From Octopus vulgaris (Eukaryota), in the NCBI GenBank assembly GCA_951406725.2, contig OX597814.1:36890001-36954000 (forward strand): a stretch of DNA of 64,000 nt. Direction: 5' to 3'. The first letter of the stretch is position 1; each line of letters opens with the position of its first letter. Below the pieces are notes generated by a model that made no database searches, was not told the DNA's origin, and was given only the letters and a program-made list of their open reading frames with translations. Positions 33,483 to 61,652 of this stretch are shown here, in pieces. The position numbers and the translations under genes were made by a program.

Positions 33483-33561
33483 TATATATTGTATATATAT
33501 GTATATATACATAGAGAAAAAAATCTATCAGAAAGGAACTCCATCTCTCTTTAAAAAATAT

Positions 33562-33599
33562 CTTTTGATAAGCATAACAAATGCGCAACCGGTAAAAAG
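33562..33599 (+). ncRNA. Minimal hammerhead-like motif (U3:A8 core, GCAA variant)
   Basis: cuu-UUGAUAA-GCAU-aacaa-AUGC-GCAAC-CG-GUA-aaaag. Confidence 0.5.
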
Positions 33600-34240
33600 T
33601 ACTTTCACCTAATTAAATACACTCTCCCTTACTTAAATTATTTTGTCAGCATTTTCTTCATTTCCTTTTCTTATATATATATGTATAATTTTTTTCTCTT
33701 CGACGACACACACTACCGTCAAAAATGTGGCATTGCGATGGGTACCAAGGCTGCACCAGTCCTTGCGAACATCATAATGGGTTACTTCGAACTGTCACTC
33801 TATGACATATCAAGCCAGAAATTTGGACATGTTTTCCACACCTACCTAATGGAAAACTGGAAAAGGTATTTAGATGATTGTTTCATCATATGGAAAGAAC
33901 CTTATGAAAAACTCCTGGAATTCAAAACCATACTAAACAACATACATCCCAACATCCAATTCACTATGGAATTAAGCAAACATCATCTCCCTTTCCTTGA
34001 TCTCCTAATTATAAAAACACCTAAGAACCAAATCATAACAGACATCTACCACAAACCTACAGACTCACAACAATACCTCCTCTTTAGTTCATGCCACCCA
34101 AAACACACCAAGACAAATATCCCTTTCAATTTAGCTAAAAGGGTATGCACCATTGTCTCGGATCCAAAAACACGAGAAATACGCCTTCAAGACCTCAAAA
34201 AAACACTATTACAACGTCAATATCCTTCCACCCTTATATA

Positions 34241-34512
34241 AGGGTAAAGACCCCCTTCGGTCATGAATGACCATGGGATTGCACCTAGAAAGTTACCCTC
34301 CTAGACACAAGTCCGGGCAAAGTTGTTTATGGAAGACCAGCAGTCGCCCATGCATACCAGCCTCCCCTCTCCACGCCACCAGTGTTATCCAAGAGAAAGA
34401 CAAAGGTCGATACAGCTTGGCACCTGTGACGTCGCAACTCATTTCTACAGCTGAGTGAACTGGAGCAACGTGAAATAAAGTGCTTTGCTCAAGAACACAA
34501 CACGCAGCCCGG
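34241..34512 (-). mobile_element. 5'-truncated family-A SINE nested in the PLE ORF
   Basis: Near-identical to 4261-4527 but lacks the tRNA head. TATA flanks both sides (34235-38, 34513-16), and the ORF resumes STLI/EYGIKRAK. Confidence 0.9.
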
Positions 34513-35841
34513 TATAGAGTATGGAATAAAACGCGCCAAAGAACTAGACAACACTACACTGAAAACCACCCAACCTAACACCACACACAACCTCAAAATA
34601 CTTCCATACATTTCCACCCACAACCCCAAAAATATCGAAGCATACACCACAATCATACAAAACCTCAGTCTACTGTCAACAGACCCAAAAATTAAAAACA
34701 TTATAAATACACACAAAATCCTCAAATGCAAAAGGTAACACAAATCTTTAAAAAACCTCTTGACAAATGCCAAACTTCACACACCACATCCACCCCCAAC
34801 AGTAAAAAAATGTGCACGCTCAAACTGTGGTACCTGCCCCTTTCTACTTGAAGGCTCTGAATTTACCTTCAAACAAGGTACGAAGTTTAAAATCAAGACT
34901 AACTTCTCCTGTTCCTCCGAGAACCTTATCTACGTTCTCACATGCGCTGGTTGCCAACATAATTATGTTGGACAAACGAGTCTCCCGTTACGTAAACGAG
35001 TAACGGTGCATAAAGAACAAATAAATCTCCCGGAATACCGACAAATTCCACTGAGTGACCACTAGACTCATGTGCTAAAGACTTAAACCCCAAATTCTAT
35101 ATATTCCCCTTCTACCAATGTAAAGACGGGATCACCACACAGGAGAGAATTAACAAGGAGAATCTCTTTATTGAAAAATTCCAAACACAACTTAATATGC
35201 AAACTCGTCGTTGATCAAACTTCCTTTCTCTACCTCACTCTTCATGGATGGACTAACACAAATATATAAAGATACCACGCATTCATCACTTCAAGCTAAA
35301 ACTTATATTCTTTAAATATCATTTTTACTATTGTTGTTATTACTATCATTTTATTATAAATGATATGACAATTTGAAATGCAATTGTCTATGCAGATTTA
35401 TATAATTAGAAAATAATATAAATAAAGTGTTAAAATCTGAAAGTAAAGTTAACAAGCAATTATATATAAAAGATAACGTAAATGAAGCTAAAATGATAAT
35501 TTTATAATTTGGGTTTTATTGAAGAACTCAAAAGAGTTGTCTCCCCTTACTCACAACACAGGAACTGAAGAACCAGAACCACAATTACTACTACTTCCTG
35601 TCCTGCAAACATGCTGAATTAAACAACACAACACATGCTCTTAATCCCTTTAGATCTTAACACCTCAAGGTAATTTTTTCGTGAACAACCATAAAACTCA
35701 AGATACACAACGAACTCACAATGTATCGGAGAACTTATTTTTTAATTTTTGTACATTTTTATCATTATTCTTTTACAAAAAACAATACAATTTTCTTTTT
35801 TTCCCCTTTCTAATTTTTAAAAAAACTTTTTAAAACATAAA

Positions 35842-35882
35842 TATTCTTGACAAGTCATACAATGACGAAAACCGGTTGAATA
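35842..35882 (+). ncRNA. Minimal hammerhead in the PLE 3' end (U3:A8 core)
   Basis: UAUUC-UUGACAA-GUCAU-aca-AUGAC-GAAA(A)C-CG-GUU-GAAUA, with one extra A. Confidence 0.65.
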
Positions 35883-35972
35883 AATATATATTTATATATT
35901 TTATCAATTTCTCATTTTATTAAAATTTTCTTTCATTTGAGCATTCTGCATTTAAAAAAAAATGTTTCCTTA

Positions 35973-36030
<58 letters not shown>

Positions 36031-36032
<2 letters not shown>

Positions 36033-36251
36033 TGAAAGAATGGAGTTGAACGACGAATTAACAAAATTCCTTTATTTTCGACATATGTTTCGAAGGATGC
36101 ATATTCCTAATTGCGAAGGAATATGGAGTATATTATGCCGCTTTCTCATCAGGAAAATGAAGGAACTTATGTCAACATCAAGATGCACAATAAACTTTTA
36201 GATGACTGCTAACACAGTCATCTAAAAGTCGTTCAACTCCATTCTTTCATA
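36031..36251 (-). mobile_element. ~220-bp non-coding element with 24-bp terminal inverted repeats and an internal hammerhead
   Basis: tatgaaagaatggagttgaacgac (36031-54) is inverted at 36228-51. The element abuts (TA)n. Confidence 0.75.
36067..36165 (-). ncRNA. Type I hammerhead ribozyme, canonical core, extended stem II
   Basis: UUCCUUCAUUUUC-CUGAUGA-GAA..UUC-GAAAC-AUAU-GUC-GAAAAUAAAGGAA. Stem I pairs 12 of 13; inner hairpin CAUAUUCCU/AGGAAUAUG. Confidence 0.88.
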
Positions 36252-36417
36252 TATTTATATTTAAAAAAAAAACCTACAAATTTCCACACGAAAGCACGTA
36301 ACTTCAAACGTGTCTTCTCTGATGTGAATTTGCTAGCCAGGTATCGGTTAACCGAATTATCCATAACAAGATAATTCATTCAACTACTCAAATATATATA
36401 TATATATATACACACGT

Positions 36418-60868: not shown

Positions 60869-61282
60869 AGGCGCAGGAGTGGCTGTGTGGTAAGTAGCTT
60901 GCTAACCAACCTCATGGTTCCGGGTTCAGTCTCACTGCGTGGCACCTTGGGCAACTGTCTTCTGCTATAGCCTCGGGCCAACCAAATCCTTGTGAGTGGA
61001 TTTGGTAGACGGGAACTGAAAGAAGCCCGTCGTATATATGTATATATATATGTGTGTGTATATGTTTGTGTGTCTGTGTTTGTCCTCCTAGCATTGCTTG
61101 ACAACCGATGCTGGTGTGTTTACGTCCCCGTCACTTAGCGGTTCGGCAAAAGAGACCGATAGAATAAGTACTGGGCTTACAAAGAATAAGTCCTGGGGTC
61201 GATTTGCTCGACTAAAGGCGGTGCTCCAGCATGGCCGCAGTCAAATGACTGAAACAAGTGAAAGAGTAAAAGAGTAAGAGTA
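60869..61282 (+). mobile_element. tRNA-derived SINE, family C, full length, with CORE-like segment and LINE-derived tail
   Basis: A box gtggctgtgtggtaag, B box ggttcagtctc, CORE-like gtggcaccttgggcaa, tail ggcggtgctccagcatggcc and (AAGAGT)n end. Confidence 0.88.
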
Positions 61283-61652
61283 TCTTTTTAGCCTCCTTAA
61301 AAGCAATATATTGAACTTCATTCTTATAACCAGCTTCAGGTAAAGCCATACTGTCATGTGGTATAAACGTTTCCTTTCAGTCCAGAAGGTCTAAGAGAGT
61401 CAATCCTAATAATAGTATTTAGGACGATTGGATAGTTTTAGGATGATTGGATTTCCGATTCACGTATGAAAATTTTAATATAGATTGTGGTACGGATGAT
61501 ATAGTCTTTTGCTAATGTCTTTAATAACATCCACGATATTTATTTCATCATATTCATTCTCTAGTGAGATAAGGAATCCTGTATTTTAAAGAATTTAAAG
61601 AATGTTTTACCTATACATACATGCATACATATATACGTACGTACAGATAAAC

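What the first reader, a model, noticed from the sequence alone, without database searches (positions are those of the whole stretch)
36031..36251. 220-bp mini-element: canonical hammerhead enclosed by terminal inverted repeats
Seen: a perfect core with a 13-bp stem I (one mismatch), AUAU loop III and a stem II extended by a 9-bp hairpin. It has 24-bp terminal inverted repeats and a second 15-bp hairpin (36194-36229), and it abuts (TA)n. It looks like a MITE but carries a ribozyme, and it is unrelated in sequence to the adjacent PLE end. Inference: a very short PLE-type insertion with an inverted 3' end, or a separate retrozyme family.
Basis: partly seen in the sequence, partly recalled or inferred. 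Interest (0 to 1): 0.75.

Follow-up and report, generated by a model that had tools for sequence, protein, structure and literature searches.

The report
Two-armed Penelope fragment with hammerhead
This is not a new mini-element but a 360-base, back-to-back fragment of a common Penelope-like jumping gene; its hammerhead-shaped RNA motif is conserved (cutting untested), and the family's copies suggest such fragments are likely pasted from two fixed start points on an uncut RNA.

Summary
The hammerhead, the 25-bp inverted repeat and the 15-bp hairpin are in the sequence. The MITE and retrozyme readings fail. The unit is 36030-36392, not 220 bp: two inverted, 5'-truncated pieces of the end repeat (pLTR) of a Penelope-like element (PLE) with RT and GIY-YIG, inserted in (TA)n. 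The 'TIR' is only the overlap of the arms (-101 to 817 bp in 50 insertions); the hairpin junction occurs once in the genome. The hammerhead covaries across sister families and has a palindromic loop III, as in dimeric PLE hammerheads; cleavage is untested. The parent is Hydra-like (tree, DKT, no CCHH) but lacks the linker zinc motif. Mechanistic leads: 61 of 63 two-armed insertions have one short and one long 3' end about 140 nt apart; arm 5' ends pile up at a predicted TATA-initiator start (22 of 51; 15 of 29 in a second set), not at the cut site (4 vs 3.3 expected); the long start site lies inside a covarying helix. The scan noted the short/long rule before on other DNA of this genome.

The parts
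36030..36214 (-). Left arm: pLTR piece from about reference position 572 to the short 3' site (about 760); carries the whole hammerhead
36067..36165 (-). Type I hammerhead motif: stem I 36153-36165/36067-36079, core CUGAUGA 36146-36152, irregular 12-bp stem II with inner hairpin, GAAA 36088-36091, palindromic ACAUAUGU stem/loop III; predicted cut 36080/36079
   Evidence: sequence; covariation; palindrome
36194..36229 (.). Copy-specific fold-back at the junction (15-bp stem, 6-nt loop); joins the right arm through a 2-nt overlap (GT)
   Evidence: junction found once in the genome with up to 1 mismatch
36228..36392 (+). Right arm: pLTR piece from reference 736 through the short site and the ~140-nt tail to the long 3' site
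36030..36054 (+). Apparent left 'TIR' = overlap of the two arms (reference 736-760)
36228..36252 (+). Apparent right 'TIR' = the same overlap; the element continues beyond it
35975..36029 (.). Left (TA)n target tract, shared with the 3' end of the neighbouring unrelated PLE
36393..36410 (.). Right (TA)n target tract

Best explanation
The stretch 36030-36392 is a dead, two-armed fragment of the end repeat of a Hydra-like Penelope element, likely made when the element's enzyme copied an uncut, hammerhead-bearing RNA leader from two fixed internal start points onto the two strands of a (TA)n target. Shown: identity with the pLTR of an RT/GIY-YIG element; arms head-to-head with 3' ends outward in (TA)n; one short and one long end; copy-specific overlap and hairpin; conserved hammerhead fold. 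Inferred: (1) transcription starts at a TATA-initiator about 80 nt upstream of the hammerhead; (2) the endonuclease nicks both strands and the RT primes at the UA-rich short site on one strand and the long site on the other; (3) the short-site cDNA ran about 190 nt through the intact hammerhead, folded back for 15 nt, and was joined by a 2-nt overlap to a 165-nt long-site cDNA; (4) the hammerhead is a passenger that would cut only as a dimer or with protein help. Confidence about 0.97 for the identity, about 0.6 for this mechanism.
For:: 1591 candidates, most top hits match only query 1-191; the sequence continues into a GIY-YIG/RT ORF; L065 shows inverted pLTR + pLTR + ORF + pLTR; 2218 exact copies of the 'TIR' 23-mer, pairs at many spacings; of 75 loci from the first 100 positional hits, 50 were two-armed and all 50 had one short and one long end; 22 single-armed; 3 broken; 11 of 13 in a second set. 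Sister families 6 of 6. 120 of 129 ends lie at (TA)n. 5' ends: 22 of 51 arms at risk stop in 553-574 (3.6 expected), 15 of 29 in the second set; 4 stop at the cut site against 3.3 expected. In 15 of 50 the arms do not overlap at all and in 39 of 50 the short arm reaches further 5' than the long arm, so it is not simply a copy of the long arm. Helix around the long site: 95% paired, 3 pairs changed on both sides. PMC11167929 (main text read) shows two internal RT start sites, nicking and extension of both strands, and uncut RNA as the main substrate for another PLE.
Against: One long/long insertion (L012) and one with an end inside the tail (L007). The two-arm table was curated by hand from BLAST ends (a few nt uncertain). 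The 553-574 window was chosen after seeing the histogram; the second set was selected for similarity to the window arm. The start site is a consensus match only (recalled TATA/initiator consensus); the Drosophila Penelope promoter is TATA-less (PMC2377424, abstract only). TA-like microhomology near 558 could add to the pile-up. PMC11167929 found start sites not homologous to the target, whereas here both sites are UA-rich. PMC3846280 (discussion read) prefers self-priming on an antisense template. The compensatory changes in the long-site helix come from one split between family groups.
Confidence: 0.85

Rival explanations
1. A MITE (DNA-transposon derivative) with 24-25-bp TIRs and TA target duplication that carries a ribozyme.
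For: Perfect 25-bp inverted repeat next to (TA)n; 2218 copies of the 23-mer.
Against: The element runs 140 bp past the right 'TIR'; overlap lengths range from -101 to 817 bp; the interior junction is unique; the sequence is the pLTR of an RT element.
Confidence: 0.01
2. An independent non-LTR retrozyme family replicating through circular RNA.
For: Conserved type I hammerhead, thousands of short non-coding copies.
Against: No tandem 150-400-nt units among 75 loci; copies are nested truncations of a coding element; no pile-up of ends at the cut site.
Confidence: 0.02
3. Same parent element, but the inversion arises by single priming followed by snap-back (self-primed) synthesis and later deletion, the short end being set when the intermediate is resolved by the endonuclease.
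For: 15 of 50 pairs have 5' ends within 20 nt of each other (5 expected); this copy has a real 15-nt fold-back; proposed in PMC3846280 and PMC8557442 (passages).
Against: In 39 of 50 pairs the short arm holds sequence absent from the long arm, and 15 pairs do not overlap; single-armed insertions with only a short end exist. It needs many secondary deletions.
Confidence: 0.25

Closest known systems
Hydra clade of C-terminal EN+ Penelope-like elements, incl. Hydra-1_Obim (Craig et al. 2021, PMC8557442; passages, section 11 and searches of the supplement read)
   Same: Single ORF with RT and C-terminal GIY-YIG, DKT, no CCHH, CxxC and CxH around E and N, hammerhead in the pLTR, (TA)n target, inverted 5'-truncated copies with a tail at one end.
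   Different: A different family from Hydra-1_Obim (different protein start, short stem II there; six motifs of this family absent from the supplement). RWL for RWK; CxCX5C linker missing; Asn-rich linker; unit about 3.6 kb; tail 140-155 nt against 30-40 bp given for PLEs; stem II about 12 bp plus a hairpin.
PAc (Poseidon) of Anolis carolinensis (Frangieh et al. 2024, PMC11167929; parts 1-2 of 4 read)
   Same: Two internal RT start sites bounding the tail, AT-rich target, both strands nicked and extended, hammerhead cleavage not needed.
   Different: Other clade; sites lie within the ORF and about 30-40 nt apart there, upstream of the ATG and about 140 nt apart here; here both sites are UA-rich like the target.
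PLE hammerheads with small palindromic helix III (Cervera and de la Pena 2014, PMC4209133; parts 1-2 of 4 read)
   Same: Type I topology, 2-bp stem III with palindromic loop, long stem II, opposite-strand pairs 100-700 bp apart already noted.
   Different: Longer, branched stem II and no bulged base at the start of stem II; missed by Rfam models.
Animal non-LTR retrozymes (bioRxiv 10.64898/2026.07.22.740005; part 1 of 5 read)
   Same: Type I hammerhead derived from PLE pLTRs.
   Different: Retrozymes are tandem non-coding units; this is a truncated piece of a coding element.

Membership tests
MITE | Constant TIRs at both termini | tested here: not met
   Overlap -101 to 817 bp in 50 insertions; element continues past the right repeat
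MITE | Homogeneous size and interior | tested here: not met
   Inserts 121-3096 bp; junction unique
Non-LTR retrozyme | Tandem non-coding units each with a hammerhead | tested here: not met
   None among 75 loci; parent is coding
Non-LTR retrozyme | Circular RNA | not testable with these tools
   Only assembled contigs were served
Type I hammerhead | Core CUGANGA...GAAA...NUH | tested here: met
   core nearly invariant in 16 family representatives
Type I hammerhead | Three helices supported by covariation | tested here: met
   10 of 21 pairs changed on both sides, 90.8% paired, slid controls 35-55%; distal stem I weak in one sister family
Type I hammerhead | Self-cleavage | not testable with these tools
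   Monomer fold is 8-14 kcal/mol above the predicted minimum in four copies
EN+ Penelope-like element | Single ORF with PLE-type RT and GIY-YIG | tested here: met
   Motifs; 681 homologues; intact 895-aa ORF in a sister family; Pfam gave no significant match
EN+ Penelope-like element | pLTR with hammerhead; partial-tandem and inverted copies; optional tail | tested here: met
Hydra clade | DKT for DKG; no CCHH; CxxC and CxH around E and N | tested here: met
   against section 11 of PMC8557442
Hydra clade | RWK motif | tested here: inconclusive
   RIRWL here; RWK in 93 of 120 homologues
Hydra clade | CxCX5C linker motif | tested here: not met
   0 of 42 translated stretches (overlapping loci counted more than once) against 104 of 120 homologues
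Hydra clade | (TA)n insertion | tested here: met
   120 of 129 ends
Hydra clade | Phylogenetic placement | tested here: inconclusive
   Nested among unnamed proteins bearing Hydra motifs (FastTree support 0.97-0.995, 60 of 120 homologues used); no named Hydra reference was in the tree

The most novel reading that the evidence does not exclude
The abundant short hammerhead 'mini-elements' of this lineage are run-off copies of the capped, uncut 5' leader of the element's mRNA: a paired RT-endonuclease primes both target strands at two UA-rich sites set about 140 nt apart by a conserved three-way RNA junction, and the RNA sites themselves, not the linker zinc motif (lost here), direct insertion into (TA)n.
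Probability: 0.35. Interest if true: 0.65.

Novelty: new variant of a known kind. Interest (0 to 1): 0.38.

Why it matters
The locus itself is an ordinary dead retrotransposon fragment and a warning that PLE inversions mimic MITEs. The family gives testable handles on an open question, how PLE inverted ends and tails form and what the hammerhead does: a near-strict short/long rule with a long tail, evidence that templates pass through the hammerhead uncut, a covarying helix around a start site, and (TA)n targeting without the zinc motif proposed to mediate it. A young sister family has an intact ORF in a tandem array suitable for in vitro work.

Tried and rejected
Rfam: no hammerhead model at gathering score or E<=10. 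Pfam and PDB sequence searches of the parent ORF gave nothing significant. Whole-stretch folding is dominated by the inverted arms and does not show the hammerhead. No RNA holder was listed as RNA on record; the contigs laid give no verdict on expression, start or cleavage. A pile-up of ends at the cut site was tested and not found. Kinship with the neighbouring PLE was tested and not found. An absolute short/long rule was rejected after L012. Target-site duplications cannot be read inside (TA)n. Paper searches found no paper that counts short/long pairing or reports 5' ends piling at a PLE start site; subscription journals are not covered, and only the supplement of PMC8557442 was searched, so figures or other supplements may bear on this. 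Look-ups of earlier findings by sequence and by linker words returned nothing.

Full report
Observation. On the minus strand, 36067-36165 reads as a type I hammerhead: stem I 36153-36165 with 36067-36079, CUGAUGA at 36146-36152, GAAA at 36088-36091, C-AUAU-G, and GUC with the predicted cut between 36080 and 36079. The inverted repeat is perfect over 25 bp (36030-36054/36228-36252) and the 15-bp hairpin is at 36194-36229. Rfam finds no hammerhead model here, probably because stem II is long (inference).

The true unit. The window is G000:C1:36890001-36954000 of a 2.8-Gb genome. The stretch has 1591 candidates; most top hits match only query positions 1-191 and then run on into other sequence. 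Following them upstream leads through a 900-nt untranslated region into a GIY-YIG domain and an RT. L065 is a full copy: (TA)n, inverted pLTR, partial pLTR, 2.66-kb ORF, pLTR, (TA)n. Against a natural copy (L030, positions 1-900 after the ORF), the window holds positions about 572-760 on the minus strand (36030-36214) and 736-900 on the plus strand (36228-36392), each ending in (TA)n. The unit is therefore about 362 bp, and the 'TIR' is the 25-nt overlap of two arms.

Not a MITE. The 23-mer of the repeat occurs 2218 times (control 0). The first 100 matches along C1 fall into 75 loci, all of which were mapped. Fifty are two-armed (table curated by hand from the BLAST ends), with overlaps from -101 to 817 bp and inserts of 121-3096 bp; 22 are single-armed and 3 are broken. 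The junction that forms the 15-bp hairpin occurs once in the genome with up to one mismatch. It is a 15-nt fold-back followed by a jump through a 2-nt overlap.

The hammerhead. Core patterns with this geometry occur 4107 and 3753 times (controls 2 and 3) in a radiation of sister families. In 16 chosen representatives, 10 of 21 pairs change on both sides and 90.8% of cells pair, against 35-55% for slid controls; 57 copies mostly of the window's family give 12 of 32. Loop III stays self-complementary (CAUAUG, CACGUG, CAUGUG with wobble), as in PLE hammerheads thought to work as dimers (PMC4209133, parts 1-2 read). The monomer fold lies 8-14 kcal/mol above the predicted minimum in four copies. 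The window copy has private changes that tidy stem I and the inner hairpin but add a mismatch in stem II. Cleavage was not tested.

The parent. The ORF has RIRWL, DKT, FDISSFYPS, YRDD, a C-terminal YIGA-type GIY-YIG without CCHH, and CxxC and CxH around the conserved E and N, as described for the Hydra clade (PMC8557442 section 11). It has 681 homologues at E<=1e-10; of the best 120, all have DK[T/S], 93 RWK and 104 a CxCx4-8C linker. The host families lack that linker in 0 of 42 translated stretches (overlapping loci repeated) yet nest among proteins that have it (60 of 120 homologues used), so the loss looks derived. They still insert in (TA)n (120 of 129 ends), which goes against the proposal that this motif mediates targeting (PMC8557442 passages). 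Hydra-1_Obim in that paper's supplement is another family. Because one listed feature fails, I file it as a PLE and as a Hydra-like variant. The host is probably an octopod: the only named close homologue is from Argonauta hians and earlier AI notes say octopus.

Two ends. Arms end either at a short site (about 755-775) or a long site (about 900), both UA-rich, about 140 nt apart. All 50 two-armed insertions of the C1 sample have one of each. In a second set (26 loci) 11 of 13 do; L012 is long/long and L007 ends inside the tail. Sister families give 6 of 6 with tails of 140-155 nt. A tail at one end of inverted PLE copies is known (PMC8557442, PMC3846280), at 30-40 bp, and PMC11167929 showed in vitro that it lies between two internal RT start sites. 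Earlier notes of this scan report the same rule on other DNA; I reached it before reading them and count them as no support. In 39 of 50 pairs the short arm reaches further 5' than the long arm and 15 pairs do not overlap, which favours two primings over simple snap-back; 15 pairs ending within 20 nt of each other (5 expected) fit a shared template end or hairpin-assisted joining.

Template. Arm 5' ends show no excess at the cut site (4 of 92 at risk, 3.3 expected) but 22 of 51 stop in 553-574 (3.6 expected; window chosen after seeing the data), and 15 of 29 in the second set, 14 of them in 556-565. A TATA-like box at 529 and initiator-like motifs at 555 and 561 lie there (consensus recalled, not tested). 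The simplest reading is run-off at the 5' end of an uncut RNA. In read-through copies the long site sits in a single-stranded stretch of a predicted three-way junction closed by a helix between the tail and the bases just before the ATG; the helix is 95% paired with three pairs changed on both sides between family groups. This matches internal initiation. The window's left arm stops about 15 nt short of the predicted start.

Verdict. What is new is modest: an undescribed Hydra-like lineage without the linker motif, with a long tail and long stem II, and copy statistics that make the priming mechanism testable. Interest 0.38.

Noticed in passing
window 35842-35882 (+): The neighbouring unrelated PLE (33555-35974; RT, CX2-5CxxC linker and CCHH-type GIY-YIG, Neptune-like by motifs, no tree) carries its own minimal hammerhead-like motif with a U3-A8 core and palindromic loop III, identical in 16 of 16 arms seen; its tail is about 47 nt and 4 of 4 inverted pairs are short/long. 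It ends at the same (TA)n tract.
   Followed up: partly
window about 34242-34495: A roughly 250-bp insertion interrupts the neighbouring PLE ORF; a similar sequence flanks L145, so it is probably a common short repeat.
   Followed up: no
G000:C1:119514100-119525400 (L257, L258): Head-to-tail array of a young sister family, period 3624 bp, four hammerheads, intact 895-aa ORF; many copies elsewhere are 100% identical over the stretch searched.
   Followed up: partly
L030 reference positions 516-523: A perfect TGACGTCA (CRE-like by recall) lies just upstream of the TATA-like box; a half-site lies at a similar place in sister family C.
   Followed up: no
L036, L053, L054 ORF linker: Asn-rich, (AAT)n-containing stretch between RT and endonuclease, like the inserts described in rotifer PLEs (PMC3846280).
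   Followed up: no
L076, L167, L186, L191: A sister family has a CCGAAGA core (U4C) in many copies; others use GUA or GUU at the cut site.
   Followed up: no
window 61278-61579: Weak tblastn match to the family RT (E 0.016), possibly another decayed Hydra-like piece.
   Followed up: no
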